A stretch of 64,000 nucleotides of DNA, taken from positions 72,230,001 to 72,294,000 of the forward strand of contig OZ024746.1 in assembly GCA_964016885.1 (NCBI GenBank), written 5' to 3'. Within the stretch, counting starts at the first letter, position 1. The number at the start of each line of letters is the position of its first letter. The translations under genes and the position numbers were made by a program. This stretch comes from Eledone cirrhosa (Eukaryota). Positions 2,750 to 64,000 of the stretch are shown here, in pieces. The notes beneath the pieces are model-generated. The model was not told the origin of the DNA. It searched no databases and was given only the letters and a program-made list of their open reading frames with translations.

Positions 2750-2764
2750 TATATTCTCTCTCAG

Positions 2765-2970: not shown

Positions 2971-3552
2971 GTAAATCTTACTGTTTCGTCTCCCCTTAAC
3001 TTTATAAAGAGTATATAGATCCAGGGCCTGATTTATCGGGGGGGGGGGCACCTTTTGTCAAACAGGGCCCGCTCTAGGAACAGCCCAGGGCACCACAAAC
3101 TTGAAATTTCCCTGGCCTGCCAAAATCTAAATATGACCCTGAATAGATCCTGACCGAGGAAGGAGTCCTACAAGGTGAAGTGGGGGATTCAACGGGTATC
3201 ACTGACTGCTGTTCTCCACGGAAATCATTTTGCAATCTCGTCTGCTGGGCCCAACTGAGGTATACCATCCAACCAAGAATTGTAGAGTTGGATTGCGGCG
3301 TGGACTGACTGATGCAATGGTAGTTGCTGTCTGCTGATCTCTACAGGATGGCCTTTGCCATCTTGTCCGAGGAGGCACAGCTGAGAGACACCCTCTAACC
3401 AAGGGCTTAGAGTTGACACAGCGAGGTAAACTGGCTGATTATGTGGATGTCGCTGGCTGCTGTTTTCCAAAGCAATGCTGAAACATAACTTCCAGCCAAG
3501 AGTGTAGAGCTAACCCCTCGCCCATTTTTCCTCCATCAATTTTCTTTGTTTC

Positions 3553-3597
<45 letters not shown>

Positions 3598-8340: not shown

Positions 8341-8443
8341 ATTATTATTATTATTATTAATAATAATTATTATTTATAAAATAAAGTACCAGTAATGTAC
8401 TGGGTAATTGCTGCCCTTGTGCCTAAAGTAGAAACACTTATTC

Positions 8444-8548
<105 letters not shown>

Positions 8549-8820
8549 ACCTGCCTGGAATCAATGAGAAGTCAAGTATTCCATGAAATGATCGATGGCC
8601 TAGAAAGGTCCATTGGTTTAAATGAAAAGGGAGCTTTATTACCCTACTTATCAGTCATCTGACCCAAATGCTTGCAATCGGCTAGACTCCATTTAAATCA
8701 TCCAGGGGTTCTTGAGATGGTGTTAAAATATGCAATAGGATACGTTTCTCATTCCAGACTGACATTCCAGAATGTACATCAAGATAAATTGGTTTCGTTA
8801 GTCTTTTCTCTTTTTTTCAG

Positions 8821-8886
8821 ATTTGGAAAGCATCAATAACTTCAGATTATCGTCTGGTCACCATTCCACTATTCTTGCGCGACGTA
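8821..8886 (+). CDS. Gene A exon (C2 C-terminal part)
   Basis: tttttttcag|[22 protein letters not shown]|gtaagt, 66 nt, phase 0-0, compatible with the previous exon. Confidence 0.75.
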
Positions 8887-8945
8887 GTAAGTGAAACAGT
8901 TTTATATATACACATACACACACATACACACACACACACACACAC

Positions 8946-9026
<81 letters not shown>

Positions 9027-9059
9027 TGTGTGTGTTTGTGTGTGTTTGTGTGTGTTTGT

Positions 9060-9120
<61 letters not shown>

Positions 9121-9234
9121 TGTGGCTAAACAGCATAGGTTAATTTCGAAACCATTATTATATATGTATGTGTATGAACTCCACTACACACACATACCTA
9201 TATATATTTAGGCATATAAAACTAATCTGTATTA

Positions 9235-9300
9235 TATTTTATCTGATGAAAGCGGACCATAATCTGCCTTGGTGGCCCTTGAAATATGTATAATAAAATA
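9235..9300 (+). ncRNA. Minimal type I hammerhead ribozyme in family A element (~9210-9440)
   Basis: tattttat-CTGATGA-stem II-GAAA-tatgta-TA-ataaaata; stem I tattttat/ataaaata pairs. Confidence 0.75.
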
Positions 9301-9457
9301 AAAATAAATATGATTTTATAAATATAGTTTCGATTTGTTAATATATTGTATATTTACTCCAATAATTTGTTGAGTGCTTTATATCAGTTATAAAAATATT
9401 TTAGCTTGTTGTATCCCAACAAATTAAATATAACCTCTACATATATATATATGTATT

Positions 9458-9523
<66 letters not shown>

Positions 9524-9525
9524 CA

Positions 9526-9570
<45 letters not shown>

Positions 9571-9571
<1 letters not shown>

Positions 9572-9755
9572 CCAAAGATTAATATGGTTCATTGATTACT
9601 CAATCAATACAGTTTTACAATAGATTAAAAGCACTCAACAATGAAATTTTCCTGGAGTTTTAATATTATTCAAAATATTAACAAATGAAGATATTCACAT
9701 AAAGCATATATTTTGATTATGTGAATATCTTCATTTGTTAATATTTTGAATAATA
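9571..9755 (-). mobile_element. Family-A-related 3' fragment ending in a ~40-bp-arm palindrome
   Basis: Reverse complement of the ACTCC..GAGTGCT motif at ~9628-9660; inverted arms ~9665-9702 / 9717-9755. Confidence 0.6.
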
Positions 9756-10113
9756 TATATATATATATATGTAAATATCTATAAGTCGTTTGGAAGCCTC
9801 GACAATGCAAATGGGTAAATCTCCGGGTAACAAGGTCCGGTGGTGGAGAGAGAGAGATGTAAGTGGGTGTACGTTGAGATGCGTGGTGTGTATAAGATGT
9901 GTGAGATGTGTAGAATGGAGGGAAGAGTAAAAGGATAAAAATAAAAATAATAACACTAGAGAGAGTGTTACCTTGGAAGAGATTTAATAGTCCCTATATA
10001 TTTCGGATTCACATCCATCAACTGGGGGTTTTTTCCGGGTTGGGGGAAAAGGTTGTCTGTCGGACAAGTCCGGAAGGCGTCTTTCGCTGTTTGCTGATTT
10101 GAATATATATGAT

Positions 10114-10182
<69 letters not shown>

Positions 10183-10340
10183 TATACATGTGTATTTATA
10201 TATACATATATATATATGTGTATATACTTGTATATACTTGTATATATGTATATATATATATATATATGCGTGTGGGGGGGGGGTCTGTGTCTGTCTGTGT
10301 ACGTGTAGTTTTTTTAATTTCACAACATTGTGATTTTCAG

Positions 10341-10355
10341 GTGAAGGGTGATACT
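10341..10355 (+). CDS. Possible 15-nt micro-exon of gene A (VKGDT)
   Basis: gattttcag|GTGAAGGGTGATACT|gtaagg, phase 0-0; no homology support. Confidence 0.25.
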
Positions 10356-11170
10356 GTAAGGTACTTTTCTTTTGTAGTCCCCGTTGTATATTTGTTCTTT
10401 TTACATGTTGGTGTTTTGACTTTGGCTGTTTTTGTTGGAGGGAGGGGGCTTTGTTATATTTGTTTTTGCCCATGACCAGCGCCTTGAACTAGCAAACCTA
10501 TGACAAAAAGACATTTCAATTGTCACCATCCATTTTATTTTTCAGACATAGTATGTTCAGAACAAAGCGAGATTTAGCTGTTATTTCTAGCAAGTCAAAC
10601 GATCACTTATAGGCCAACACCTCTATTCTGTATTCATCCACCGGTACAGCATCATATCTCAAATTTATAATTCATCTTTATAATGTTCTTATAATATATT
10701 TTGATTTTGATGCAGGCATAGGAAGACATTTGTATCGATCGACATGCTAAAAATAGCAGCTAAATCACCCACAAATCATACCTTATTATTTTTCTAATTT
10801 GGGTAAAAGGCTAGAGATTCATGGACAGGGTGACAGTCGATTACTAGACCGTAGTGCGTGACTGGTATTTAAATCTTTTTATCACGAAAGAAAAAAGAAA
10901 CAATTTGACCTCGGAGAGATTTGAACTTAAAACGTAAAAAAAAGGAACAAATGCCGAGGGGCATTTTGACTGACGCTCTAACGATTTCTCCAATCCACCT
11001 ATTAGATTATCTTTAAATACATCAAATTTAGATGCATCTAGAATACTTTTGGTTATAAGTCTGCTCTATCAAAGCTGACATGGGGCTAAACAATAATAGA
11101 AACTCTAACATCAATAACATCCACCACAAGGCTAACCTAGAAATTAAACCTGTAATTTCTAATCCATCAG

Positions 11171-11230
11171 GTCACGGAGAGGATCATTCCCCAGATATCC
11201 AACCCAATGGATACTTTATATACACACAAG
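11171..11230 (+). CDS. Gene A exon (C2-GAP linker)
   Basis: ccatcag|VTERIIPQISNPMDTLYTHK|gtatgt, 60 nt, phase 0-0. Confidence 0.6.
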
Positions 11231-11361
11231 GTATGTGATATATATACATACATATATATACACAAACATACACACACATGCACACACACATGCATATGTA
11301 TGGATGCATGCATCCATATATATATATGGACGTTAAACGATGATGATGATCATCATCATGA

Positions 11362-11409
<48 letters not shown>

Positions 11410-11417
<8 letters not shown>

Positions 11418-11819
11418 AGATCAAAAGATGGTTAAAGGAGTTCCATGTATTTTATTATGCGCATTTCAAAAACAAACATCATCATGCAATAATATTTGTG
11501 TTTTCATCAGATAAAACAGGAGAACATGATATGAAGGCTAAAAAACACTTGTGGATAGTGCAGTTTTAAATCAACATATCTGCACTATCCACAAGTGTTT
11601 TTTAGCCTTCATATCATGTTCTCCTGTTTTATCTGATGAAAACACAAATATTATTGCATGATGATGTTTGTTTTTGAAATGCGCATAATAAAATACATGG
11701 AACTCCTTTAACCATCTTTTGATCTTATATTATGCATACTCCAGTCCTACAAACTGTAGAGTGCTTCTTATCCGATATCTGCATTGCTTTATTGTACTAC
11801 AATAAAACTCACCTCCTAC
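11410..11819 (+). mobile_element. Family B hammerhead element with a perfect 154-bp head-to-head palindrome
   Basis: Arms 11410-11563 / 11580-11733 with a 16-nt spacer; hammerhead tgttttat-CTGATGA(11633)..GAAA-tgcgca-TA-ataaaata on +, mirror copy on -; (TA)n on both flanks. Confidence 0.85.
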
Positions 11820-11893
<74 letters not shown>

Positions 11894-12068
11894 GTCTGTG
11901 TGTGTGTGTACATGTTTGTATATATGCATTATACGCAAACGCTAGATATTTACACATCTACAAATGTCAACACATACATGCATATTATTCCAAAAACCTC
12001 CGAAACTTCAACATATTATGTACTAAACTATAATATTTTCAAATGCTCGTCTCATTTAGTCTCAACAG

Positions 12069-12169
12069 AGAACAGTCGTGGCTCTGACATTATGGTTGAA
12101 GCCTGTGGTTGACACTGATAGTCAGAACAGATGTGAAATATTTGGTGAAAGTCTTCAAATAGCCATCAA
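12069..12169 (+). CDS. Gene A exon (pre-RhoGAP, IFG motif)
   Basis: tctcaacag|RTVVALTLWLKPVVDTDSQNRCEIFGESLQIAI(N)|gtgagt, 101 nt, phase 0-2; IFGxxL matches the RhoGAP VFGV motif. Confidence 0.85.
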
Positions 12170-12369
12170 GTGAGTAATGTAATCTGATAGTTTTTTGTAA
12201 CGTGTGACTTGGTACGTGATTTGATACATGATGGTATAACATGGACTGATTCCCGTCTGTTCACGTGATCTTATGTAACAGCTATCACCTTTCAATTTAC
12301 ATGACAATTACATTTTCAAATTTCAAATTCCCCAATATGTAACCCATGTCATAATTATATTATATTATG

Positions 12370-12555
12370 ATGGATTGGCAGTATCGGTAGAGGGTCGGAC
12401 GCCATGCTTTGACGCATAGAGTTACGGCCCTTGCCATTCTCAGTTCAAATCCCGCCGAGTTTAACTTTGCATTTCATCCTTACGGGGTCGACAAAATAAA
12501 GTACCAGTAATACACTGTGTAATTGCTGGCCTTGTGCCAAAAGTAGAAACAATTA
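12370..12555 (+). mobile_element. tRNA-derived SINE, full-length representative of a family with many copies here
   Basis: A-box TGGCAGTATCGG, B-box GTTCAAATCC. Other full or partial copies: 8375, 14155, 14662, 25690, 30652, 42912, 44322, 47092, 49597, 54008, 58168, 59890, 61586, 62436-62878. Confidence 0.85.
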
Positions 12556-12569
12556 TATATATATATATA

Positions 12570-13046
12570 CATGAAATTTTTCGATCGACTTTCGTCAAAT
12601 CGGACCGAGGAAACGATGCTTCCGAATGCTTCTGATGGCCACCACATCTATGTTTAGTAACCTGAGGACGTTCAGCAGGTGACCCTGCTTCCAAGATGAT
12701 CCGAGGCCACGTACATTTACACTGCCTATTCTGAGTACGGCCATGCTGGGTGGGGAACGGGGTAAGTGAGATAGGATCACTTACCTTGAGCGTGTGGGGA
12801 AGGGATAGTAGAACCGTCCCTTCGGCTGGTCATGTGTGTCTCCAAGATGATATTTGTATAGATTCTTTTAGAGAGTGACCCCCTGAAATCCCCAACTGCA
12901 TTGGGGAATTTTTGTTTTAATTGTTTGTAATCTTCGAGTTTAATTTCCACAATGTTAATATTTTTTGGTAATGTTCTTGGTGTTGGTGGGGTGTGGTAAT
13001 TTATATCTGAAATATCGGTGTGCTATTTTATATGTTCCATTAATCC

Positions 13047-13088
<42 letters not shown>

Positions 13089-14137
13089 GGTGGGGGGGGG
13101 GGCTGTTTTCTTTTTGCTGTTGGGTGTGTGTGCTTTGTTGTGTTTGCGATGTTGCTGTTTGTGGCGATGATGGTGGTGGTGTGGTTGTTGTTGGTTGGTG
13201 GTGATCCTTGTGGTGGTGATGATAACGGTGGTGTTGTTGCTGCCAATCTCCTTGCAGCCTTTACCCTCTTTCTTTGCCTTCGCTTTTGGAGGGAGAAGCT
13301 GTGGTGTTTTTGTGTTTGTTTTGTTATTTGTTGACAACCTTTTTCCACTCCTCAGCCGCCTCATACACCATGTCTGACTGTGTGAGAGGTCGGGGAGGGG
13401 TATGAGTTCTACCCTCTCATTTGTCTTTGTTGTTGTTGGTGGTGGTGGTGGTGGTGGTGGTGGAGGAGCGTGGTCTGCCGTTCTTGGCACAGGTGCAGCT
13501 AGTGCAACTGTTTCTGTTGCTGCAGTTGCCGCCGCTCTTTTTAGTTGTCCGTGGCTTTGGTGTGGGTGCCACGGACGTTGTCTTCTTACTCTCTGTAGAA
13601 TCTCCCGACTTTTTCGCTGACTGTTCTGTTTCTGATGGCAGCGGTTCCGGCGTTGGAAAGCGGGGGACCTTCGCCTTTGTTATTATCCGAGGGCAGAAGG
13701 CCCTGAGGTGAGACTTCGATCCACAGTTGAAGCACTTTGGACGCCTTCCTTCCACAGATATGGGAAGTTGGGAGTCAATCCCGAGGTCTATCACGTCGGG
13801 AATAGCGCTGATGTTTTTCAAAATTAGTGTTCTCAGTGTTGTTGTCATTGCTGACTTTGTTCACGTTGTTTGTGGTGGTGTTTGTTGTATAAATTTCTCT
13901 GTTCGCCGTAACCCTCCTCTCAACTTTTACGCCGTTGTCACACGACAGCAGACATATCGCTGGCGGGCGTGGCTCAGCCATGTTGTTTTTTTTTGTTTTT
14001 TTTGTAAAAAGGCCCAAATATTATACTTTCCCCTTCACAGGGCAAAGTACACGACAACAAAAGTTTACAATGAATGATTTATGACAGGTAAATAAAGAGA
14101 CTTACGGGAGCGAGCAAAAAGACGTCTGATCAGACCA
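12570..14137 (-). mobile_element. 5' portion of a second Tx1-like LINE (ORF1 zinc knuckle plus ORF2 start)
   Basis: VEGRRPKCFNCGSKSHLRAFCP (CCHC) and MAVLRIGSVNVRGL (APE motif I); 5' end abuts (TTA)n. Confidence 0.8.
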
Positions 14138-14344
14138 ACAATAATAATAATAATAATTGTTTCTACTTTTTGGCACAAGGCCAGCAATTACCCAGTGCAT
14201 TACTGGTACTTTATTTTATCGACCCCGTAAGGATGAAAGGCAAAGTTAACCTCGGGGGAATTAGAACTCAGAATGGCAAGGGCCGTAACTCTATGCGTCG
14301 AAGCATAGCGTCCGATCCTCTACCGATACTGCCAATCCACCATG

Positions 14345-14389
<45 letters not shown>

Positions 14390-14570
14390 GTAATTTCTGA
14401 TTTAGGTACAAGGCCAACAATTTAGGGGGGAAGGGAAAGTCGATTGAATCGACCTCTGTACGTTATTGGTACTTTATTTCATCGATCCCGAAGGGATAAA
14501 ATAATAATAATAATTATAATGATGATGTTAATAATGATAATTGTATTTTCTTATTGATGTTTACCTGAAG

Positions 14571-14632
14571 TCGAGACGGTGTGTCAATTCCTCTCATCGT
14601 TATCAGCTGCACGGCAGAAATCGAAAAAAGGG
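14571..14632 (+). CDS. Gene A exon (RhoGAP N-terminus)
   Basis: cctgaag|RDGVSIPLIVISCTAEIEKR(G)|gtaagt, 62 nt, phase 2-1; matches BCR RERSKVPYIVRQCVEEIERRG. Confidence 0.92.
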
Positions 14633-14661
14633 GTAAGTAACTCTAACTAACACTCTCATTA

Positions 14662-14848
14662 ATAATTGTTTCTACTTTAGGCACAAGGCCAGCAATTACC
14701 CAGTGCGTTACTGGTACTTTATTTCATCGACCCCGTAAGGATGAAAGGCAAAGTCAACCTCGGCGGGATTTGAACTCAGATCGTAAAGGGACATAACTAT
14801 GCTGGAAAGCATAGCGTCCGACCCTCTACCGATACTGCCAATCCACTC
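14662..14848 (-). mobile_element. SINE with target-site duplication
   Basis: cactctcattaataattg occurs at both ends (from 14651 and from 14844). Confidence 0.85.
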
Positions 14849-15243
14849 TCATTAATAATTGACAACAAAAAGATCACGTTACAACACAATAACATGATAC
14901 CTCCCTGCTCTCTTTTATTCTGTTGTATTATAATTTTGAGGCGAAACCAATGTAGCTTAAAGTATTTTATATTCTTATGCACGTTTTTTTAGGTTTGTCA
15001 GAGATTTTAGTAAATCATATTGCCTTGAAAGAGGAAGGCAACTTAACATTATTGAAGCGGGGATTCATAGTGTAAATAAGACAGAGAAATATTCATTCAG
15101 ACCTGAAATTAAGCTCTCAAATTAATCTAATCTAATCTGGCCGAGGTGCGAAAGGTGTAAGGGAGATAACTGCGAATGTCCCGAATAGATTGTTCGAGTT
15201 GATTAGAATATTAGAATGTTGCTGTTATTCAATCCGGAGCTTT

Positions 15244-15915
15244 TTAGTTATGCAAGAGGTGCTTCCAGACGTGTGGACAACGTGAGAAGATTTCATTTCT
15301 TGAATTTAGGCAATCGCTATTGCGTAATCTTCTTAGAATATTTATCCTTTCTTCAATATAGAGTCCACAAGACAGATTACCCCTTACGTATGGCTTGGAC
15401 TTAGTGATAGCTTTCCATTGAATGGAGTAATTTATACCTGAGTCTTTGAGGGACCATACGTGGCTCGCGAGCTTCGTGGATGATCGTTTTTCCGGGTACC
15501 TAAAGGTCGACTGATGGTTCAGGAAGCGTTCCTTAAATCGGCCCTCCGCCATACCCACATAGGATTTGACCTCCTGTGGTTGATTTGGTCGGCTGAATGT
15601 GATCACATCTTCATAAATTACAGCGGGTGAGTTGCACTGTTGTTGAAGGGGACAAGCTTCAGGCTTTCGGCAAGAACATCTTGGTGAGGTGCCGCTCTTA
15701 GGACGGTTGGTGATGTGGGCCTTCATATTCTTAGCGCAGGAGTACCCTAGTTTTATTCTGTGTCTGTTAAAGATGGAGCGGTATTTGTGACCTATGGGAA
15801 AGTGTTTATCTAAGAGGGCTAAAAATGTTTTTCCTACATTAGTTTTAACGTTGAGTGAGAAGGGAGGAGAGAACCAGATAGTTTGTCTATTGGTACGATT
15901 TCTTTTCTTAACGGT
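15244..15915 (-). mobile_element. Penelope-like element 3' fragment: RT C-terminus plus GIY-YIG endonuclease
   Basis: WFSPPFSLNVKTNVGK, CSCRKPEACPL..C, VIY..YVGMAEGRFKERF..H, LNSRNEIFSRCPH. Confidence 0.88.
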
Positions 15916-15944
15916 AAACAGAAATAACAAAGCAAACAACACAG

Positions 15945-16460
15945 TACAATGGAGATATATTAGTTTTACGCTTGATATAGTAGGAAAATAGTCTTAACGC
16001 CTCGGGCGCTAGTCCTTCATCAGAAAATAGAATGAGAAATTAAAGATGAAATAGGAAGATAGAAGAAAGTGAGCAGTGGTAGAAACGAAAAGAAATGTCT
16101 TGTATGTATGTATTTTTATGACAGTGAATAAAGCAGAACATTATAAATTCATAAATTGGAGAAGTCAGTAAGATATATTCAGAAGAACTAATTATACTCC
16201 CTTGTAGTTGAGTAAAATTGCAAGCTAATAGGTGAGCTATTTCTAGCGCTCCTTTTAAATTGCCACCCGCCCGTCTATTACTTTTCTTCATACCAGACAC
16301 TGAGCACATGATGTTTCTTATTTGGAAAAAACACATATATAGTGGTCATTTAAAGTATCTTTTTATTGTTGTGAGAATGCTTCCTGATTATTCGTGTTCT
16401 CCCGATGTTAGATATCCTGATTTGTTAAGAAACTGCAGTAGGGGTGGGTGAAGTAAGTAT
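15945..16460 (-). mobile_element. Penelope-like pLTR fragment with a degenerate hammerhead at 15992-16027
   Basis: Homologous to 49950-50060; core CTGATGA..GAGG instead of GAAA. Confidence 0.6.
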
Positions 16461-16490
16461 AGTTAATTATGATCTTTGTATTTATTATTA

Positions 16491-16623
<133 letters not shown>

Positions 16624-16719
16624 CATTTATGTGAGTGGGGATGTATTTCCATGCATATAAGTTTGTGTGTATGTAAAAGTTCTAAGAATCAATGTATATT
16701 TCATGCTATATTTTTTAAG

Positions 16720-16797
16720 GTTTGAACGAAGAATTCTTATACCTTACGAAAGGGAATTTGGACAGTATTCGTCGCCTTTTTCAGGCATTTGATAAAT
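16720..16797 (+). CDS. Gene A exon (arginine-finger region, R replaced by L)
   Basis: ttttaag|GLNEEFLYLTKGNLDSIRRLFQAFDK|gtatgt, 78 nt, phase 1-1; aligns to GMEEVGIYRVSG..IQALKAAFD. Confidence 0.88.
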
Positions 16798-17690
16798 GTA
16801 TGTATTGATTTCTACATAATAATATGCAAATAAATCAACAAAAGCAAATGCTTGAACACGTTTGACACTAACCCGCCTGAAGCCGCCCATGATTCTATAT
16901 TTCAAAGCCATTTATTTTAAAGTCTTTCGTTTATCTAAAAACACTTCTATCATAATTCAATGAAAATACTTTAAATTCTATTCCACGAGCTTAATAATGA
17001 GTGAGGTAGTTATATTAATATATCTCTTCAAATTCTCGATTATTTTTTTAATTATTTAAAAACTTTGGACAGTGTCTATCATTGGAAATATGGCGAAGAA
17101 ACAGTTGGAGTCATTTTTTCTGCTAAAGCAGAGGTTGTGGGTCCCATGATAAGCTTCTCTAGTTTGCTTTATCATCAACATATCCCTCACCAGCCCCTTG
17201 GCTTTCATTTCCTTTTCCATCATATTTAGCCAAGGTCTTCCTCTTCTACCACTTCATTTCCACCACCCTTCTCGCCCAATCACTTTTTCTTTTCAAAATG
17301 CATGACCTAGCCATATTATTCCATTTCCCTCCACAACATTCATTACTAGCGAACCTTTCCTTCGCCCGTTACATTCCTTTGTCATGTCCTCTTCGAGATT
17401 CAGCATCTTAAAATGACCTCTGACCGACGGATTTCTTCTTTCACAGTTCCTGGCATATCTTTCACACTTCCTGACACATTTTCATCCAACTTTCATCATC
17501 CATAACAAGGCAATCTTCTCTCTTACACAATGAATCTGATTCCTTCTGTACTCACCTTTGCCTTCAAATTATCTCTATTTCGTTGATCAGTTACATTAAC
17601 ATTGTAAAGAGGAATTTAGTAATTCAGAAAATAAAAACTATAATTAATTACTCCTCTGTTAACATTTCTATTTTACTTTTCTATGGACAG

Positions 17691-17825
17691 GTTCTGATAC
17701 AGGGGCAGAATATATTCAAAATAAATCCTTCACAGTACACGACATTGCACAAGTACTATTGTGGTACCTCCGGGCATTGCCCACATCATTACTGCAACGT
17801 CCAGATACGTTCATTCTCATCCATG
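17691..17825 (+). CDS. Gene A exon (RhoGAP core)
   Basis: ggacag|CSDTGAEYIQNKSFTVHDIAQVLLWYLRALPTSLLQRPDTFILIH|gtgagt, 135 nt, phase 1-1; matches VNAIAGTLKLYFRELPEPLF. Confidence 0.92.
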
Positions 17826-17929
17826 GTGAGTACAACTAACTCCCTCCATCCACGGGCCTTTGACTCCTTAAGCAATCCTATGGGTGCCCTTGTGTCGTAC
17901 GGCATTTAAAATCCAGCAGAACCCATCCC

Positions 17930-18655
17930 ATTCTATGTCTGGATTTCTAGAATGTACCAATGTATACATAGTCTAACTGCATCGGGTCATCCAGATCGTA
18001 TTTCGATAGGGTATTCTGTGGCGATGTAGTCTAGCATAGGTTGTCCACAATTGAAAGTAGCCGACTACACAGCCCACAAATTTGTGATCTGTATAGTTGA
18101 CATAGATAGGTTTTACTGACGGGGACCGGTTGCTGGCACGTACAGAAACTGGATTAGTTAATTAGTTATGTGTACGTTGACGAGGACAATATTCAAACAA
18201 CAGATGGTTGTTTTCTCGGAAGAGGGCCATTGGATTGACATCGATGTGATTTAGCAAAGGTTTAGCGATACAGAGAGCTTGTTAAAAACCACGGCTGCGT
18301 GGTCAAAGCTAGGGAACGTGCTTTTAAACATTAGAGGACGAAAGCCGTTTGATGGACGAGAGGGGCTACGGCACGGCGAGACAACAACTGGGACAGGGCA
18401 CTTGCCCCAGAGATCAGGGCACCCGTGGCTTTAGGAGTTTTTTTTTCTACAAGCATCCCTCGAACGTCTCCTCCCTATTGAGGAATTCCCTTTGTTTAAT
18501 TTTTATTGTTACCTTTCTTTTTCACTATTGTTAAATCTGTTTACACACCAAACCCACACACCAACACACACACACACATACACAATCTGTTTTCGTCCTG
18601 TGTCGTCATAATGTTTTTCTTGGTGTTAACCCTTGAGTGAATAACAAAAATCATT
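17930..18655 (+). mobile_element. Internally deleted, decayed Tx1-like copy
   Basis: Nucleotide similarity to 5225-5810 joined to the 8120-8340 3' UTR; ends at (TTA)n. Confidence 0.75.
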
Positions 18656-18695
18656 ATTATTATTATTGTTGTTGTTGTTGTTGTTACCATTTTAG

Positions 18696-18801
18696 ATATA
18701 CAGAATCACACGAGAAAAGTGTTGGCCCTTAGGTCTTTGATTCACCAACTACCTCATGAAAATCGTTGCGTTTTCTTTCATCTTTTGGATCATTTCGTCA
18801 A
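18696..18801 (+). CDS. Gene A exon (RhoGAP)
   Basis: cattttag|DIQNHTRKVLALRSLIHQLPHENRCVFFHLLDHFV(K)|gtaaga, 106 nt, phase 1-2; matches LPEANLLTFLFLLDHLKR. Confidence 0.92.
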
Positions 18802-19584
18802 GTAAGATGTCTGCCTCTTCCACTTATTCTCCAATACCATCATCATCATCATCATCATCATCATCGTCATCATCATCGTCATAATCATCATCCATGTCAT
18901 CATTCTCTATTGACTTTCTCTACTCTTTGCAGCTTTCAATTGTGATCCTATGATAGGATAATTAGCTCTGACCAATTTCGATCTTGCACATATATAGAAT
19001 AATTCTTTCAGCATTAGTTCAGCAAATACTGTGATGGGAGTTATAAAATTACAAAACCTGTCCGGAGTTATCTCACACGCTTAATTTAAAATGATAATTC
19101 TTTTTTATTAATATTATTACTATTATTACATATCACTGCGTACTTATGTCATGTCAGGTTTTTACTATACGAGTTTCCTCACATTTTAATGTTTTACTTT
19201 TAATGCTCACTGTGTGAAAGCATGTGACTTGGTGGTTAAGGTATTCGACTCACGCCCATAAGGTCGTGTGTTGTATCCTTGAGCAAGGTACCTTATTTCA
19301 CATTGTACCAGTTCACATGGCTGACGAAATTTAAGATGTACCGGTAAACAAACTGTGACACACCGAATCTTCCCAAGAACTACGTTAAAAGTGCATGTGT
19401 CTGTGAAACACTCAGCCACTTGCACAATAATACAAGATCGACTGTATTTGTATTTAAAATGCTCAGCTACTTACAAGTTATTTTCACGGGGGAAGTTGTT
19501 ACGTTATTCGAACAGCAGACACCGACGGATCTAACAACAACCACAACAACACTAACTGTATTTTCATTTTGCTTGCCTCTACAG

Positions 19585-19774
19585 AGTTTGTCAATACCCC
19601 AAGAATAAAGTAACTCCAACTACGGCAGGAAAGATACTCTTTTCTGTGTTTTACGACTTGGAATCTGCAGACAAATTAAGTGAGAAGACAGATCAAGAAA
19701 TGAAATTTGCCGCCGTCATGGTATACACCATGGAGTTACGAATGGGAGGTGTTAATTTATACAGTATTTCATAA
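19585..19774 (+). CDS. Gene A terminal coding exon
   Basis: ctctacag|VCQYPKNKVTPTTAGKILFSVF..MELRMGGVNLYSIS*, phase-2 start; AATAAA overlaps the stop codon. Confidence 0.88.
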
Positions 19775-19966
19775 TAAAACGATAGAATATAATTAAATAA
19801 ATAAATAAATTAACCTAAATGAATAAATAAATATACAAACAAATAAAAGACCAAAAATGGTTACTAAATCATGCAGCTTTTGGCTACATTTCTTTATGAT
19901 ATCAAAACGGTGTATGGGCGGCATCGTTAGAGTGCCAAACAAAATATATATGCGTGGATGTATATT

Positions 19967-21592: not shown

Positions 21593-24500
21593 CTAGCAGT
21601 TTAGCCCGGCGTTGCTCGGGTTTATTTATTTGCTATGAAAAGTTACATACAGGTAAACGTGGCTTGAAAGCGAATAAGCTTATCAATTAAGTGCATAAAG
21701 CAGTTGAACCGGTTATTAAAAGTTACGAACCAATTAGCATTTTGGACAATCAATGATGGGTTAATAATCTTCCAATAGCGAATTTAGCAGACCAAAGTTT
21801 CAAGATGGTGGCCCTGATGCCGCTGGGTGTCAGATCTGTCCGCCATGGGATACCCTACCAGGAAATAGTTTTCCAGATGGCATAACTCAAACACCTGCAC
21901 CAACATCTATAGCACCTCTTTGTAGACGATATTGCGTGTCATCCCTTGAGGAGTGTATGCAAAAAGTCCATTCCTGCTCCCTACGCGGGAACAGGAAACA
22001 AAGTTGGCCATGGGAGAAGCATAGCTCTCCCAAATAGATGCCCGCCACCGACAATGTTTGCCCTTGTGACTTGTTAATGGACATGGCAAAACATGGTCTC
22101 ACCGGGAATTGGGGTCGCCGGAAATCGAACGGGATGTCTGATGCCGAGGGGAAAAGGTTCATCCTTGGAATGAAAACATTCTCCCCTCTTCCGCAACCCG
22201 TTACAATGGTGGCCTCAATCAAGTGGGGTGTCAGTGACTTGACGACCATGCGAGTACCGTTGCACTGCTTTGGTGGACGCAAGTTCCTTATTAGCATAAT
22301 GGGACAGCCAACCCTAAGCTTAATAATGTGAGGTGGGAGCCCTGGGGGCTCAAGGGAATTTAATAACACAACCGGATAATTAACGATATCGTCGGGGTCT
22401 GACGTCCGGTCGATAGATTTGAAGATGTGCTCTTTACCGGGAATCTTCTCAATCAGCTGCTCGTTAATAAAATTAACCATGGTATTTTTCGAAGCAAGGG
22501 TGGCTCTTTTGTTGAGCCAATCGAGGTTTTTAAAGTTAGATGAGACATCAGGAAAAACTGCTTCCCAAAGGTCAGAAGGGCTGCTCACAATGTTGCACAG
22601 GGAGTCGATTGCTATGCTGCCCTTGTCATCCGCCGGGACCTTGCCCTCACCAAGTGCTAAAATGTTCTGAGCAAATGCTGCAGACATGTTGTCACCATGC
22701 AAATGAGCACGCATATTTGTGCTCAGGTACAAACTCTTCACCTGGATCCACAACATGGACGACTTAAGGCAGGCACGCACTTCATCAGCTCTTGTCTCTT
22801 TGGGGATGACAGGCAGCGTTTGCCGAAAATCCCCTGATAGCAGAAGGGTTACGCCACCCATAGGAGCCTTAGAATCCCTAATGTTTTTCAGGGTCCGGTC
22901 CAATGCCTCAAGGGCACCCTTGTGTGCCATTGTGCACTCATCCCAAACAATGAGGCAACATCTTTTGAGAACCAGAGCTTTGTGTGAACTCTTGCTGATA
23001 TTGTATGTTGGTGTCTCAGTTTTTATTAAATCCAAAGGGAGTTTAAAGGTTGAATATGCTGTCCTGCCTCCCGGCAGCAAAGTAGCAGCGATCCCGGACG
23101 ATGCAACGGACAACGCAACTTTTTTCTCCTGACGAATCTTAGCGAGAATCAATTTCGTTACAAAAGATTTTCCGGTATCCCCAGCAGCGTTTTTTATTGG
23201 AGGAGGGGTCCGTTTTTTATTTGGGGGTGTGGTGTTTTTTATTTGGAATCGGTTTTTTATTTGGGGGGGGGCCGTTTTTTATGGGGGTGGGGGCGTTTTT
23301 TATTGGTGGGGGTCTGTTTTTTATTTAGGGGGTCCGGTTTTTATTGGGATGGGGTCCGTTTTTTATTGGGGGTGTCCGTTTTTTATGGGGGGTCCGTTTT
23401 TTATTGGGGGTGGGGTGGGGTGGGGGGCGTTTTTTATTTAGAATCCTTTTTTTATTTGGGGGGGGTCCGTTTTTTATTGAGGTGGGGGCGTTTTTTTATT
23501 GGTGGGGGTCCGCTTTTTATTTGGGGGAATCCGTTTTTTATTGGGGTGCGCTCAATTTTTTATTTGGGGGGGGAGAAGGGTCCGGTTTTTATGAAGGGGT
23601 GATCCGTTATTTAGAGGGGACCCGTTTTTTATTTGGGGGGGGGGTTATTTGGGAGGGGGTCCGTTTTTTATTGGGGGTGGGGGATCACCCAATTCACACT
23701 TTTGAAGCAAAATGGCAAAGAGTTCCCGTAGACTTTTAGGTGATTTCAGCAAAGCACCCTCTGCTAAAGTGGAATCCCATTGCGAATCATCTTCCAAAAG
23801 ACCTCGCTTAAAGCAGGCTTCCCGGTACGTATCACATATTTCTCCATCAACAGTTTTGAGGTCCTGAAAACTTTGTGGGCCTACAACTTCATACAGAAGA
23901 AGGCGGAGATGAAAGCACTCATGCTGACTTGGGGGCACAGTGTAAACCCTTCCAAGACAGCTGTCAACTTTTACACAGGATGTCTTTCAACAGCCTAACC
24001 TGACTTCTTCGCACCCAAGTGTTTTTCGACCATATAAAGTAGGATGGAACCTGGGGGTACACAATTGTTTGCGCAAATGTATCAAACTGGTAAAGTTTGA
24101 AGAAACCCGTCAGAGTGGTCTCCTTCGGATCGGCGGCCAACTTGGTGGCGGTTTGGTCCGTAAAGTAAACCCTTTGCCAATTTTCCAAATGTACCACAAG
24201 CTGTACGATGGCGGGGTGCCGTTGGTGTAGGGGTAAACCAAATAGGCGCCAAAAAGCTTCATTGCTACTGATGTACGGCCCCGCCAGGTATTCTGTGACC
24301 TCGTCCCTGCTATTTTCAGCTTGAAATGCGAACACTGCGGCATCAGAGCCCGTATTTACATATTTGCATATGTATTTTATCGACTTGAGGGAGTTGCAAA
24401 ACTCAACGTTGATGTGGGCGTTGAACATCTTCAAGAGAAGCGGGCAGTAAGGGACCACCCATCTATTGTCGACTTGACCTCTCTTTACTATTGTGGTGAA

Positions 24501-26025: not shown

Positions 26026-29095
<3,070 letters not shown>

Positions 29096-58363: not shown

Positions 58364-58619
58364 TTAATACCACCAAATTTAATGTGTTCCATTCAGCTGC
58401 ATGTAGTCAGGTACCAACCACCATCCTTCCCTCCCACCTTCCAGACATCGCCCCATGATTAAATGGTAAATATTAATTAAAAATAAAAACATATATACTT
58501 ATTACTATTTTTATTGTTTTTATTATTATTGATATTTTCATTAGTCTTGTTATTTTTGTTATTATTGTTGTTGTTGATTCTCTTGTTGCTGATATTGTTC
58601 TTATTGCTGTTGTCGTCGT

Positions 58620-58815
58620 TCAACTATCGGCATTATCCAGATTGTATCCTTCAATCTTCAGTTCTATCATACATTTCAAAATACCGGCGAAATGATTCCG
58701 TTTCCTTATGTATTCCTCGAGTGTTAGGGACACGTCCGAGTCGAGGATCACAGAACTGAAGATTCCACCCAAAATACCAGGACTCACTCGGTTATTGCAT
58801 TCGTTTTTACAAATT
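58620..58815 (-). CDS. Paralog gene B terminal coding exon
   Basis: tttcccag|ICKNECNNRVSPGILGGIFSSV..HFAGILKCMIELKIEGYNLDNADS*, phase-2 start; aligns with 19585-19774. Confidence 0.85.
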
Positions 58816-58853
58816 CTGGGAAAACCACCGGAGAAGGAAGAGAAAAAGTAAAG

Positions 58854-58938
<85 letters not shown>

Positions 58939-58979
58939 ATATACACATACATTATATATATATATATATATATATATAA

Positions 58980-59409
58980 GCAAAAGGGATATTCAATTTG
59001 TTGGTAATTCAACAAATATAAATGTTTATAACTGATTTAGAGCACTCGATAAGTTTTCTGGAGTATAATATTCAATGATATTAAATAAATGGAAACTATA
59101 TTTATAAAACCATATTTATTCTATTATATATATTTCAAGGGTACCAAAACTTTGGTACGCTTTCATCAGATAAAATACAAAGTTTGTTTTATAAATTTTG
59201 ACATAACCAAAAAAAGATACCTTAACGGTTAACAAGGAAAACTTGAACCGTTAAGTTGAACCGTTAAGTTCTTGGTTATGTCAAAATTTATAAAACAAAC
59301 TTTGTATTTTATCTGATGAAAGCGTACCAAAGTTTTGGTACCCTTGAAATATATATAATAGAATAAATATGGTTTTATAAATATAGTTTCCATTAATTTA
59401 ATATCATTG
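58980..59409 (-). mobile_element. Family A hammerhead element with a 138-bp palindrome
   Basis: Arms 59073-59210 / 59272-59409; tattttat-CTGATGA(59313)-aagcgtacca../tggtaccctt-GAAA-tatata-TA-atagaata, mirrored on -. Confidence 0.85.
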
Positions 59410-59579
59410 TGTGTGTATATATATATATAACGTTGAATAATGAAACAAGAGAAGATTTGTTAGTAATTAAATCCATTGTTTTACGATCGTTTCAAAGGGT
59501 AAAAAGACAATAGCATAATTGCTATCAATAAGTCAACCTTATTTTATTTTTCATATGGTGATTTAACACTTCACTGCTC

Positions 59580-59805
59580 GCAAGTGTTTTTTAAGCTTCA
59601 TATCATGTCTCCCTATTTTATCTGATGAGAACGCAAATATCATCCCATGATGATATTTGTTTTTGAAATGCGCATAATAAAATACATGGAACTCTTTTAA
59701 CCATCTTTTGATTTTATATTATTTATACTCCAGTCCTATAAACTGTTGAGTGCTACTTATCCGATATTTGCATTGCTTTATTGTGCTACAATAAAACTCA
59801 CCTCC

Positions 59806-59808
<3 letters not shown>
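59580..59808 (+). mobile_element. Family B hammerhead element (single arm)
   Basis: Homologous to 11590-11819; CTGATGA at 59622, GAAA-tgcgca-TA-ataaaata at 59665; a further 3' piece at 28178-28250. Confidence 0.82.
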
Positions 59809-59893
<85 letters not shown>

Positions 59894-60256
59894 TTGTTTC
59901 TACTTTAGGCACAAGGCCAGCAATTACCCAGTGCATTACTGGTACTTTATTTTATCGACCCCGTAAGGATGAAAGGCAAAGTCAACCTCGGCGAGATTTG
60001 AACTCAGATCGTAAAGGGACGTAACTATGGTGGAAAGCATGGCGTCCAACCCTCTACCGATACTGCCAATCCACCAGATATAATTTCAGCGAGATCGTAT
60101 TTCGGCGGCTGCCAAAACAAAACGAAACACAATTTTCGAGATATGCCGGCAAGCGGTCAATGGACTAGAAGCCAGAGCAATTAACATACGTTATAAGGGC
60201 CGAACACATTATAAAAATGGCTGTGAATCGACAAACCAGGCAGCCGAGAAAACGAG

Positions 60257-60296
<40 letters not shown>

Positions 60297-60754
60297 GAGA
60301 AGAAAGAAGAATACTGCGTGGTTGCACATGGGTTACATATGATAAAAATAGTCCTTCGTAGGTGATTTTCCAACCATCATTGGTATTTCATCGCATTAAA
60401 TATCATATACCTCAGGTTGGTGTGAGCAATAACTAAAAAAAGTTATTGGGACCAGAAAATCGCATAAAGCGAGGGGGACAAGTGAACCAAGGAAAGGAAA
60501 AAAACAAGCAACATGGTTGTCCTGGTCAGCATAAGCTGGGTGGATTTCATGAGCGAAAGGTACAGACGTCCGACGTGAGTGAGATGTAAGCAAGAAGAGA
60601 CCCACTGTAAGCCAAACAGGAGGAAGTGAGAAGGGGAGAAACAGAGAGTGAGTGAGTGGAAGTGCGAGGAAGCGGTCAGTCGAGAGAAAGTGTAACTGAC
60701 AGAGGGGGCGAAAGAAGGTGAGAGAAACAGAGAGAACGGGGAAGCAGTAAGAGA

Positions 60755-61476
60755 ATATATATATAAATAAAAAATAATAAATAAAATAAATATACATACA
60801 AATAAAAAATAATAAAATAAACATATATATAAATAAAAAATAATAAATAAAATAAATATATATATAAATAAAAAATAATAAATAAAATAAATATATATAC
60901 AAATAAAAAATAATAAATAAAATAAATATATATATAAATAAAAAATAAATAAAATAAATATATATATAAATAAAAAATAATAAATAAAATAAATATATAT
61001 ATAAATAAAAAATAATAAATAAAATAAATATATATATAAATAAAAAATAATAAATAAAATAAATATATATATAAATAAAAAATAATAAATAAAATAAATA
61101 TATATATAAATAAAAAATAATAAATAAAATAAATATATATATAAATAAAAAATAATAAATAAAATAAATATATATATAAATAAAAATAATAAATAAAATA
61201 AATATATATACAAATAAAAAATAATAAATAAAATAAATATATATATAAATAAAAAATAATAAATAAAATAAATATATATATATAAATAAAAAATAATAAA
61301 TAAAATAAATATATATATAAATAAAAAATAATAAATAAAATAAATATATATACAAATAAAAAATAATAAATAAAATAAATATATATATAAATAAAAAATA
61401 ATAAATAAAATAAATATATATATAAATAAAAAATGATAAATAACAAATATATATACAAATAAAAAATAATAAATAA
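60755..61476. repeat. Second array of the same 35-bp minisatellite (~20 units)
   Basis: Same unit and orientation as 55560-56390. Confidence 0.9.
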
Positions 61477-61831
61477 TATATATATATATATGAATTTTCG
61501 TAAAATTGTAGTATTATCAGCACGAAGAGTAGCCGCTAACAGCTGGATACTATATGTATAGTAAAAAGTCGGGTTAAGAAATAACTGTTTCTACTTTAGG
61601 CACAAGGCCAGCAAGTACTCAGTGCATTACTGGTACTTTATTTTATCGACCCCGTAAGGATGAAAGGCAAAGTCAACCTCGGCGGGATAACCTCTTATTC
61701 TCTCTCACCCTCCGTTCGATGTGAGGTTATATCTTAACCCGACGTTTCACTATATATATAGATGTCAGTTTCACATGGTATTCCTCAATGTTGCCTCGAA
61801 TTGGAGGCAATCCCTCTGTTGATAGTCCTAC

Positions 61832-61937
61832 CTTGTCATGTGATCCAATAAATAAGAAAACACTGAACAACCAGGCTCTGGGATATTTGTCAGAAGAAAG
61901 GAAATCATTCTAACTTTCACTGCAATATCCTCTATGT
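61832..61937 (-). CDS. Paralog gene B RhoGAP exon
   Basis: ctctttcag|DIEDIAVKVRMISFLLTNIPEPGCSVFSYLLDHMT(R)|gtagga, 106 nt, phase 1-2; same size and phase as 18696-18801. Confidence 0.9.
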
Positions 61938-62061
61938 CTGAAAGAGAAATCATGTATATACATATAGACATACACAAAAATATATACAGAATTTCTCATT
62001 CAGGCATGAAGGATATTGCAGTGAAAGTCAGAATGATCTCCTTTCATTAAGATCTTAACTG

Positions 62062-62200
<139 letters not shown>

Positions 62201-62958
62201 TGTGTACATGTACCTATATATATACAGGTATGTATATATACATACACACACACACACACACACACATATATACAGCGTGCCTTTTCATTTACTGAGTCAA
62301 TTTAATGTCTGGCATTATTTATCTGAAAAATACAAAAAAAAAACATTTAATAAGAAAATTAGAGCTCAAATAAGAAGTGTCCTCAAAAAACTGACGCATC
62401 CTGTATATAACAGTTAAATTTTGATGATAAACGTAAATAATTGTTTCTACTTTTGGCACAAGGCCAACAATTACCCAGTGCATTACTGGTACTTTATTTT
62501 ATCGACCCCGTAAGGATGAAAGGCAAAGTCAACCTCGGCGGGATTTGAACTCAGATCGTAAAGGGACGTAACTATGCTGGAAAGCATGGCGTCCGACCCT
62601 CTATGTAAATAATGTAAATAACGTTTCTGCTTTTGGCACGAGGCCAGCAATTATCTCAGTTCATTACTGGTACTTTATTTTATCGACCCCGTAAAGATGA
62701 AAGGCAAAGTCAACCTCGGCGGGATTTGAACTCAGACCATAAAGGGGCGTAACTCTATGCTGCAAAACATGGCGTCCGACCTTTTACCGATACTGCCAAT
62801 GCCCCACCCAAACGTAAATAATTGTTTCTATTTTAGGCACAAGGCCAGCAATTACCCAGTGCATTACTGGTACTTTAAATGCCATTATTTATATAGATGA
62901 ACTGTATACACAAAGATTTAGAAAGAGACAGATAAGAAGGAAAGCCGATTTAACTTAC

Positions 62959-63093
62959 CGAAGACAGCCAGATAGTTATTAGGACAGAGTAGAATGGAAT
63001 AAGGGAGGGCCCTCAGGTACCGTGTTAGAACTTCTGTTATGTCGTATGGTGTGTACCGTTTCTGTTTGATGTAATGAGATCCCGTGAAGCTAC
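62959..63093 (-). CDS. Paralog gene B RhoGAP core exon
   Basis: tttatgcag|SFTGSHYIKQKRYTPYDITEVLTRYLRALPYSILLCPNNYLAVF|gtaagt, 135 nt, phase 1-1; homolog of 17691-17825. Confidence 0.9.
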
Positions 63094-63311: not shown

Positions 63312-63369
63312 AATAACAGGAGGCTGGTGGACTGGTGTAAATCCTTGAAAAGTTTATTATACTATGATC

Positions 63370-64000
63370 ATTTCAATGAATGAAATGATCATAGTATAAT
63401 AAACTGGTCTTACTTTATGACTGCGAAGATGACTTTCGAATCCAGCTTTGCTTAGGCAGAGTCTCGCACAGACGCTGCATGTCAGCACCATAGGAGGACC
63501 CTCGCCGTCTGGAAGTGCAACAGCAATGCCCTTCCTCACATCCCGCTTTACTTTCTCGTATGCGATTCGAGATGCCTCAAAGGCAACTTTTCCCTCATAT
63601 ACAGTCTTTCTCCATTTATTACGATCAGCAGCAATATTTTCCCATGTATCAGCAGAGATGTTAGCGTCTTTCAGAGAGGCTTTCAAGGAATCCTTATACC
63701 TCTTTTTTGGTTTATGTGGCGGTCGTTTTCCTTTAACCAACTCTCCATAAAAGAGTTGTTTTGGTATTCTAGAGGTGACCACTCCAACGGAGTCGTTGCT
63801 TAAGCACAAGAGCTTCTATACTGTCACACATAGAGCTTTCCAAAATCTCGACATCACTGATGTGGTCCCTCCAGTGAACGCCATGGATCCGTCTGAGACA
63901 CATCTGATGGAAACGCTCCAATTGCTTAAGGTGGTGTCGATATGTGACCCAAGTATCGCAGGCATAATGACCACACATGCCCTGTACACCTTTATCTTTG
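63370..64000 (-). mobile_element. RTE LINE 3' fragment with C2H2 finger, intronic in gene B
   Basis: LERFHQMCLRRI, LRWSGH, RIPKQLFYGEL, CSVCARLCLSKAGFESHLRSH; related to 37255-38420. Confidence 0.85.

What the first reader, a model, noticed from the sequence alone, without database searches (positions are those of the whole stretch)
61896..62045. Intron-exon hairpin over a 3' splice site with A:C mismatches, a candidate ADAR recoding or splicing switch in gene B
Seen: intronic 61981-62045 is an inverted copy of 61896-61960, which covers the first 42 nt of the exon and its acceptor. This gives a ~65-bp stem with a 20-nt loop in the - strand pre-mRNA. Within the exon the differences are three G:U wobbles and two A:C mismatches. 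One A:C is at 61933 in a U-A-G context (ATA Ile to Met if edited), and the other is at 61937 (GAC Asp to Gly). Known: ADARs favour A:C mismatches and UAG triplets, use intronic editing-complementary sequences, and recode extensively in coleoid cephalopods. Inference: this is a functional editing-complementary sequence or exon-skipping structure. I saw no equivalent next to the paralogous exon at 18696.
Basis: partly seen in the sequence, partly recalled or inferred. Interest (0 to 1): 0.75.

Follow-up and report, generated by a model that had tools for sequence, protein, structure and literature searches.

The report
Fold-back copy masks octopod splice site
In an octopus-type signalling gene, a 65-base backwards copy of an exon start sits just upstream in the intron and is predicted to pair over the splice site; it is likely a young DNA-repair scar that may get edited by accident, not an evolved RNA-editing switch.

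Summary
The hairpin is real: arms 61896-61960 and 61981-62045 pair at 57 of 65 positions (-89.2 kcal/mol, z -16.8). It covers the acceptor and first 42 nt of the 106-nt penultimate exon of an octopod BCR/ABR-like RhoGAP paralog. It is single-copy, and 0 of 97 other exon stretches tested have anything like it, the paralogous exon at 18696 included. The editing reading is not supported by the mismatches: 6 of 8 differences are transitions, which give A:C or G:U equally, and two A:C at exon As is a 55% chance outcome. The two recoded positions vary among orthologs. The arm carries an exon substitution that Octopus and Argonauta lack, so it is probably young. Best reading: a local fold-back duplication beside a (TA)n tract, decaying by drift; a second one lies in nearby non-coding DNA. 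It would still be an incidental ADAR substrate and would burden splicing (opening cost 24.5 versus 3.8-7.5 kcal/mol at three other acceptors). No RNA or ortholog DNA was available, so editing, skipping and conservation are untested. Unchecked notes of this scan report similar inverted exon copies in other genes of this genome and two others.

The parts
61896..61960 (-). Original arm: first 42 nt of the exon plus 23 nt of acceptor (pyrimidine tract, CAG at 61940-61938); 3' arm of the predicted stem
61961..61980 (-). 20-nt spacer (loop), flanked by the perfectly paired 8-mer TGTATATA / TATATACA, the likely fold-back priming site
   Evidence: priming role inferred
61981..62045 (-). Intronic inverted copy, 57 of 65 matching; 5' arm of the predicted stem; single copy in the genome
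62046..62062 (.). 17-nt junction holding a 12-bp perfect palindrome (62047-62058); the 23-mer across it occurs once in the genome
62063..62121 (.). (TA)n tract next to the outer end of the copy, followed by (TG)n; likely break site
   Evidence: role inferred
61832..61937 (-). Penultimate coding exon of gene B, 106 nt, phase 1 to phase 2, RhoGAP domain; skipping shifts the frame
61933..61933 (-). A opposite C, UAG context, ATA (Ile) to ATG (Met) if edited; editing untested
61937..61937 (-). A opposite C, first exon base, GAC (Asp) to GGC (Gly) if edited; editing untested
61877..61879 (-). Candidate cryptic acceptor (AG 61879-61878, first base 61877), 60 nt into the exon, in frame, 18 nt beyond the stem; use untested
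62959..63093 (-). Upstream exon of gene B (donor GTAAGT; intron 61938-62958 is 1021 nt)
58620..58815 (-). Coding part of the last exon of gene B, ending in TGA
18696..18801 (+). Paralogous exon of gene A; begins with the same Asp-Ile codons; no inverted partner within 600 nt

Best explanation
The intronic arm is a single-copy inverted duplicate of the exon start and its acceptor, likely made by one fold-back DNA-repair event beside the (TA)n tract after this lineage split from Octopus, and likely decaying by drift rather than kept as an editing guide. Inferred steps: a break at or near the (TA)n tract is resected; the + strand end folds back at the TATATA match across the 20-nt spacer; polymerase copies about 57 nt of acceptor and exon; the end is joined back through a short palindromic junction. 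Predicted consequences in RNA: the arm is transcribed first, so the stem can form as the acceptor emerges; it would lower splicing efficiency at this acceptor and would attract low-specificity ADAR editing over many of the 41 As of the two arms, not just the two A:C sites. The reading frame is intact, so the burden is likely tolerated (incomplete folding, unwinding, or weak selection on one of four tandem paralogs).
For: Single copy in the genome and host-derived, since the exon has paralogs and orthologs. Anatomy matches yeast local fold-back insertions of 10 to over 150 bp primed across a short loop (PMC11724301, abstract and section 15). A second locus-specific fold-back (51-bp arms, 92%) lies in an old repeat 243 kb away; 4 of 4 other family members fetched have no inverted repeat. 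Differences look unselected: 6 of 8 transitions, 4 G:U to 2 A:C (P 0.34), 2 of 5 at exon As (P 0.55), one at a UAG (P 0.23); 5 of 42 in the exon part versus 3 of 23 in the intron part (Fisher P 1.0); stability no better than random placement of 8 changes (116 of 400 as stable or more). The arm shares Ile at a codon where both Octopus orthologs, Argonauta and one paralog have Thr, and Ile where the three orthologs have Val. No equivalent at the matching exon of genes A and 2.
Against: Such structures are rare at exons: 0 of 97 others, and 2 of the 3 other seemingly unique fold-backs tested genome-wide were repeat-family copies, so the neutral background rests on one other example. A stem costing 24.5 kcal/mol to open over an acceptor should be harmful, yet it has persisted to 12% divergence in an intact gene. 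Both A:C mismatches most likely arose in the intronic arm (Asp-Ile is ancestral), the direction that creates editing sites; in primates one such mutation switched on ASNS editing (PMC8897444 section 12). Six of 8 differences lie within 10 nt of the AG (P 0.011 for that window, chosen after seeing the data; 0.12 for any window). Age is inferred from protein parsimony only; arm-to-arm conversion would mimic youth.
Confidence: 0.6

Rival explanations
1. An older duplicate kept in step with the exon by arm-to-arm gene conversion or quasi-palindrome repair, still without RNA function.
For: Outer 36 bp carry 2 differences, inner 29 bp carry 6; conversion would also explain the shared lineage-specific codons. 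An unchecked note reports this pattern for PIG-S in this genome.
Against: The outer-inner contrast is not significant (Fisher P 0.13); no ortholog intron was available.
Confidence: 0.13
2. A co-opted splicing attenuator: the stem, with or without ADAR bound, blocks the acceptor and shifts output to exon skipping (frameshift, stop in the last exon, C-terminal 90 residues shorter) or to the in-frame cryptic acceptor at 61877 (20 residues lost); temperature or editing would tune it.
For: Tract and AG are paired with probability near 1; opening costs 24.5 kcal/mol at 37 C and 35.9 at 10 C, versus 3.8, 6.5 and 7.5 at three other acceptors. The cryptic CAG has 11 pyrimidines in -20..-4 versus 12 for the true site, and costs 10.3 to open. 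RELL2 exon 3 is regulated by an exon to pyrimidine-tract duplex bound by ADAR (review PMC7404189, passages).
Against: No RNA evidence; absent from paralogs; skipping breaks the domain; the differences weaken rather than keep the acceptor pairing (41.2 kcal/mol if fully paired, 24.5 observed; 49 of 400 random placements as low).
Confidence: 0.12
3. A selected editing-complementary sequence that directs Ile to Met and Asp to Gly recoding.
For: 65-bp duplex with two A:C pairs at exon As; coleoids recode heavily, mostly in neural tissue (PMC8382921 passages); squid ADAR1 and ADAR2 edit perfect duplexes (PMC10278661 passages).
Against: Mismatch types match chance. The two columns vary: Thr-Leu in Octopus, Glu-Val in Argonauta, Lys-Lys in ARHGAP15. 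A61937 has a 5' G and A61933 a wobble-paired 3' G, both thought unfavourable (recalled, no call). The domain lacks the catalytic arginine. A long near-perfect stem predicts scattered editing, including the acceptor A.
Confidence: 0.1
4. An assembly artefact (fold-back chimeric read).
For: No read or contig support was obtained across the hairpin.
Against: Arms differ at 8 of 65 positions; the unique exon and intron beside the hairpin were also uncovered in those runs, so the blank is a filter or coverage effect.
Confidence: 0.03
5. A copy of a hairpin transposon or a microRNA gene.
For: The region is rich in fold-back elements: 63 in 359 kb, 44 with further copies in the region; many start at (TA)n.
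Against: Single copy; one arm is a conserved exon; no element tail; best Rfam match 44 bits against a cut-off of 84.
Confidence: 0.02

Closest known systems
Local fold-back templated inversions at DNA breaks in yeast (Yu et al. 2024, PMC11724301; abstract and section 15 read)
   Same: Inverted copy of adjacent DNA in the 10-150 bp range, short loop, short inverted match at the hairpin tip, little homology at the far junction.
   Different: There the break is induced and most copies are 5-34 bp; here the break is inferred, the copy is in an animal genome, 12% diverged, and includes a splice acceptor and coding sequence.
Primate ASNS exon-intron 50-bp duplex (Gabay et al. 2022, PMC8897444; section 12 read)
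   Same: An exon pairs almost perfectly with a nearby intronic copy; an A:C mismatch from one intronic mutation creates lineage-specific editing.
   Different: ASNS editing is measured and the duplex is conserved across primates; there the mismatched A is intronic. Here nothing is measured, the mismatched As are exonic, and the stem covers the acceptor.
RELL2 exon 3 / pyrimidine-tract duplex bound by ADAR (as reviewed in PMC7404189; passages read, primary paper not seen)
   Same: A duplex covers the pyrimidine tract of an acceptor and could block U2AF65.
   Different: There the exon itself pairs with the tract and skipping is shown; here an upstream intronic copy pairs with both tract and exon, and skipping is untested.
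Penelope-like fold-back insertions at (TA)n (Craig et al. 2021, PMC8557442; passages read)
   Same: Inverted arms next to (TA)n; many neighbours in this region have that layout with a one-sided tail.
   Different: This hairpin is single-copy host sequence with no tail and starts 17 nt from the tract.

Membership tests
ADAR editing-complementary sequence (site-selective recoding) | Exon pairs with an intronic partner in the same pre-mRNA | tested here: met
   In silico only: 65-bp stem, -89.2 kcal/mol, z -16.8
ADAR editing-complementary sequence (site-selective recoding) | A-to-G differences between RNA and DNA at the paired exon As | not testable with these tools
   No RNA holder listed
ADAR editing-complementary sequence (site-selective recoding) | Partner conserved in orthologs, with compensatory changes | tested here: inconclusive
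   No ortholog intron DNA found; absent at the matching exon of two paralogs; shared derived codons point to a young or converted arm
ADAR editing-complementary sequence (site-selective recoding) | A:C mismatches or preferred context beyond what random mutation gives | tested here: not met
   P 0.55, 0.23 and 0.34; 116 of 400 random placements as stable or more
ADAR editing-complementary sequence (site-selective recoding) | Recoded residue conserved or functionally placed | tested here: not met
   Both columns differ among the orthologs and solved RhoGAPs
ADAR editing-complementary sequence (site-selective recoding) | Gene expressed where recoding ADAR activity is high | not testable with these tools
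   No RNA run; no paper on this gene family in octopus found
Local fold-back templated inversion | Insert is an inverted copy of immediately adjacent host DNA, 10-150 bp | tested here: met
   65-nt arm, 20-nt loop, single copy, source is a conserved exon
Local fold-back templated inversion | Pre-existing short inverted match at the hairpin tip | tested here: inconclusive
   Innermost 8 bp are a perfect TATATA-rich pair, but primed and copied bases cannot be told apart without the ancestral intron
Local fold-back templated inversion | Origin at a DNA break joined with little homology | not testable with these tools
   Junction has a 12-bp palindrome then (TA)n; suggestive only
Splice-site-masking stem | Pyrimidine tract and AG paired | tested here: met
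   In silico: unpaired probability near 0 at 61938-61941 and 61944-61951; opening cost 24.5 kcal/mol
Splice-site-masking stem | Skipping or acceptor shift observed and dependent on the stem | not testable with these tools
   No RNA run
Hairpin transposon (Penelope-like fold-back or MITE) | Dispersed copies and element-specific ends | tested here: not met
   Only the self matches in 3.0 Gb; no tail
Known microRNA precursor | Rfam score above the gathering cut-off | tested here: not met
   Best 44.1 bits versus 84

The most novel reading that the evidence does not exclude
A newborn editing and splicing switch caught early: one DNA-repair fold-back created an exon-intron duplex over an acceptor in an octopod, later intronic U-to-C changes opened two A:C sites, and the animal's strong ADAR activity now recodes the exon or melts the stem to release splicing, in a temperature-dependent way. 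Fold-back repair beside (TA)n tracts would then be a source of lineage-specific recoding sites in cephalopods.
Probability: 0.15. Interest if true: 0.65.

Novelty: new member of a known kind. Interest (0 to 1): 0.27.

Why it matters
As most likely read, it is a minor example of a repair scar that happens to touch an exon. It still offers a clean natural test: a very stable predicted stem sits over the acceptor of an intact gene in a lineage with very high editing, so RNA from this species would show at once whether such accidents are edited or mis-spliced. If edited selectively, it would show how new cephalopod recoding sites can be born in one step. A practical warning follows too: the intronic arm read on the other strand has G at exactly 61933 and 61937, so mis-mapped reads would fake both edits.

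Tried and rejected
RNA: the one run search, with the last exon and 3' end (58440-58830), listed 6 runs and no RNA holder; this is no evidence on expression. Laying runs X1, X4, X5, X6 on 61500-62062 was swamped by a short dispersed repeat at about 61580-61690 and left the hairpin nearly uncovered; X1, X2, X3, X5 on 61770-62062 laid 0 records. Ortholog DNA: no relative genome is held; a metagenome scan with the O. sinensis protein gave 106 pattern hits and none confirmed. Isoforms: the 3 O. bimaculoides ortholog models do not show skipping of this exon alone; two include it and end there, one diverges two exons earlier; they are predictions from another species. A first exon scan and a six-frame self-comparison were mostly repeat noise, and both outputs were cut. 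The matching exon of cluster gene 1 was not found, so only 2 of 3 paralogs were tested. Rejected: fossil of ADAR-edited RNA written back into DNA (changes on the - strand run both ways: two U:G, two G:U, two A:C, two transversions). Rejected as unsupported: selection to loosen the acceptor (49 of 400). My first guess that the neighbouring (TA)n fold-backs are Helentron-like was not tested. Papers: searches listed nothing on this gene or on fold-back-born editing guides in cephalopods (listings only); most subscription papers are not held, a recalled id for the 2017 cephalopod recoding paper was not held, and no supplementary editing-site tables were opened, which could list the Octopus ortholog.

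Full report
Observation. The - strand of 61880-62060 folds into one long stem at -89.2 kcal/mol, and 0 of 200 dinucleotide shuffles fold as well. The arms are 61896-61960 and 61981-62045, with 8 differences in 65 nt and a 20-nt spacer. On the - strand the differences give U:G at 61903 and 61912, G:U at 61932 and 61951, A:C at 61933 and 61937, U:U at 61943 and U:C at 61952. The exon runs 61937-61832 (106 nt), so 42 exon bases and 23 acceptor bases are in the stem.

The gene. The last exon found one relative, an Octopus sinensis BCR/ABR-like protein. That protein maps gene B exon by exon on the - strand at 46-84% identity, and further exons lie out to about 98,900 in window coordinates. Orthologs are named in O. 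bimaculoides and Argonauta, so the host is an octopod. Gene B is one of four tandem paralogs in 359 kb. The three 3' exons join into an open frame ending in TGA. The domain is a RhoGAP, but the arginine of the canonical IYRVSG motif is Ala in gene B and Leu in gene A, and is also missing in the six octopod-type proteins aligned, while 5 of 5 canonical relatives keep it. It is likely a pseudo-GAP.

Is the hairpin special? A genome search with 61800-62050 returned only the place itself and its own inverse (that search skips very common words), and the junction 23-mer occurs once. I tested 98 exon stretches for an inverted partner within 600 nt: 40 tblastn-defined exons of the cluster and 58 RhoGAP hits elsewhere (57 of the 76, one). 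This exon scored 41 and the next best 13; the matching exons of gene A and gene 2 scored 3 and 6. The matching exon of gene 1 was not found. So it is rare at exons and not inherited from the cluster ancestor, unless lost twice.

Background. Fold-backs as such are common: 63 in 359 kb, of which 44 have further copies in the region and 19 do not. Many start at a (TA)n tract and end in a 70-110 nt one-sided tail, the layout described for Penelope-like insertions (PMC8557442 passages). I tested 4 of the 19 genome-wide. This one is single-copy; two are repeat-family copies; one, at G000:C6:72048541-72048647, is a 51-bp, 92% fold-back inside an old repeat whose 4 fetched relatives have one arm only. 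That is a second locus-specific inverted duplication, in repeat-derived DNA. From this single example the genome would hold thousands, and at an assumed 2% chance of touching an exon, on the order of a hundred at exons. This is a rough extrapolation from n = 1 with an assumed exon count.

Do the mismatches signal editing? Any transition in a paired arm yields A:C or G:U with equal odds. Six of the 8 differences are transitions, split 4 G:U to 2 A:C (P 0.34 for four or more G:U). With 14 As in the 42 exon bases, two or more of five differences fall on an A 55% of the time, and one hits a UAG 23% of the time. The exon part differs at 5 of 42 and the intron part at 3 of 23 (Fisher P 1.0). Starting from a fully paired arm, 116 of 400 random placements of eight like changes were as stable as the real stem or more so. 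Nothing here needs selection. The two target columns hold Asp-Ile in genes A and B and two other paralog lineages, Thr-Leu in Octopus, Glu-Val in Argonauta and Lys-Lys in ARHGAP15. Because Asp-Ile is ancestral, both A:C pairs most likely arose by U-to-C changes in the arm. That is the direction that creates editing sites, and in primate ASNS one such change did (PMC8897444 section 12), so incidental editing is plausible.

Age. Read in the exon's frame, the arm gives MKDIAVKVRMISF against the exon's IEDIAVKVRMISF. Both have Ile where the two Octopus orthologs, Argonauta and one paralog have Thr, and Ile where the three orthologs have Val. By parsimony these are changes on this lineage, so the arm was copied after them or has been converted since. 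The outer 36 bp have 2 differences and the inner 29 have 6, which fits conversion but is not significant (P 0.13).

Mechanism. The innermost 8 bp are a TATATA-rich perfect pair across the spacer, and the outer end meets a 12-bp palindrome and then about 59 nt of (TA)n. In yeast, breaks yield inverted copies of adjacent DNA, 10 to over 150 bp long, primed by fold-back across a short loop and closed by end joining (PMC11724301). I infer the same origin. That (TA)n tracts are break-prone is recalled, not from a call.

Splicing. The tract and AG are predicted paired; opening 61958-61935 costs 24.5 kcal/mol at 37 C and 35.9 at 10 C, against 3.8, 7.5 and 6.5 for three other acceptors of genes A and B. 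Skipping would shift the frame and stop ten codons into the last exon, 90 residues short. A CAG 60 nt into the exon is in frame, has a comparable pyrimidine count and costs 10.3 to open; its use would drop 20 residues. Six of 8 differences lie within 10 nt of the AG (P 0.011 for that post hoc window, 0.12 for any window) and lower the opening cost from 41.2 to 24.5, but 49 of 400 random placements do as much. If selection acted, it more likely loosened the stem than built it.

What could not be tested. The run search listed three contig sets of one sample and three reduced-representation DNA runs, and no RNA holder. Neither laying covered the hairpin. No ortholog intron was reachable. Editing, skipping, expression and conservation therefore remain open.

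Comparison and verdict. It looks like an editing-complementary sequence and would work like an accidental one, but it fails the two membership features that could be tested from sequence. It fits a local fold-back duplication. Earlier notes of this scan, unchecked, describe inverted exon copies in EPS8, PIG-S and TM9SF4 in this genome and in two other genomes, read mostly as repair debris; I did not test them and do not count them as support. Papers seen: PMC11724301 abstract and section 15; PMC8897444 passages and section 12; PMC8382921, PMC8557442, PMC7404189 and PMC10278661 passages; the rest as search listings only. Verdict: real, a new member of a known kind, interest 0.27; the newborn-switch reading stays open at about 0.15.

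Noticed in passing
G000:C6:71,999,000-72,329,000 (window 1096-19775 and 58620-63093 included): Four tandem short BCR/ABR-like paralogs (C2 plus RhoGAP, upstream exons resembling a PH region), in alternating orientation. Genes A and B and the six octopod-type proteins aligned all lack the catalytic arginine of the RhoGAP motif, so the cluster likely encodes pseudo-GAPs.
   Followed up: partly
window 2055-2180, 9663-9756, 11410-11733, 26087-26451, 59073-59409 and many more in L003-L035: Short fold-back elements of several unrelated sequences share one layout: (TA)n, long near-perfect arm, loop, arm, then a 70-110 nt tail with an ACTC...GAGT motif, then (TA)n. Three of the five in the window carry a CTGAnGA...GAAA hammerhead-like core; Rfam listed no hammerhead match. 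Probably Penelope-derived.
   Followed up: partly
L019:3541-3647 (G000:C6:72048541-72048647): A locus-specific 51-bp inverted duplication (92%) inside an old repeat; four other copies of the repeat have one arm only.
   Followed up: yes
G000:C6:72,033,000-72,070,000: The two RhoGAP exons of cluster gene 1 that should precede its last exon were not found by low-stringency tblastn; the gene may be broken or very diverged.
   Followed up: partly
window 21985-24086, - strand: Fragments resembling a Helitron-type PIF1 helicase (recognised from recall, not searched).
   Followed up: no
window about 4700-8100, 15400-15800 and 63360-64000: Retrotransposon remnants: an L1/Tx1-like C-terminus near 7500-8100, a GIY-YIG-like Penelope fragment on the - strand at 15400-15800 inside gene A, and an RTE-like fragment in the gene B intron (names recalled, not searched).
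   Followed up: no
window 61829-61831, - strand: Read-through of the exon's donor gives an immediate stop; two O. bimaculoides ortholog models end exactly at this exon, so a short form without the last exon may exist or be an annotation gap.
   Followed up: partly
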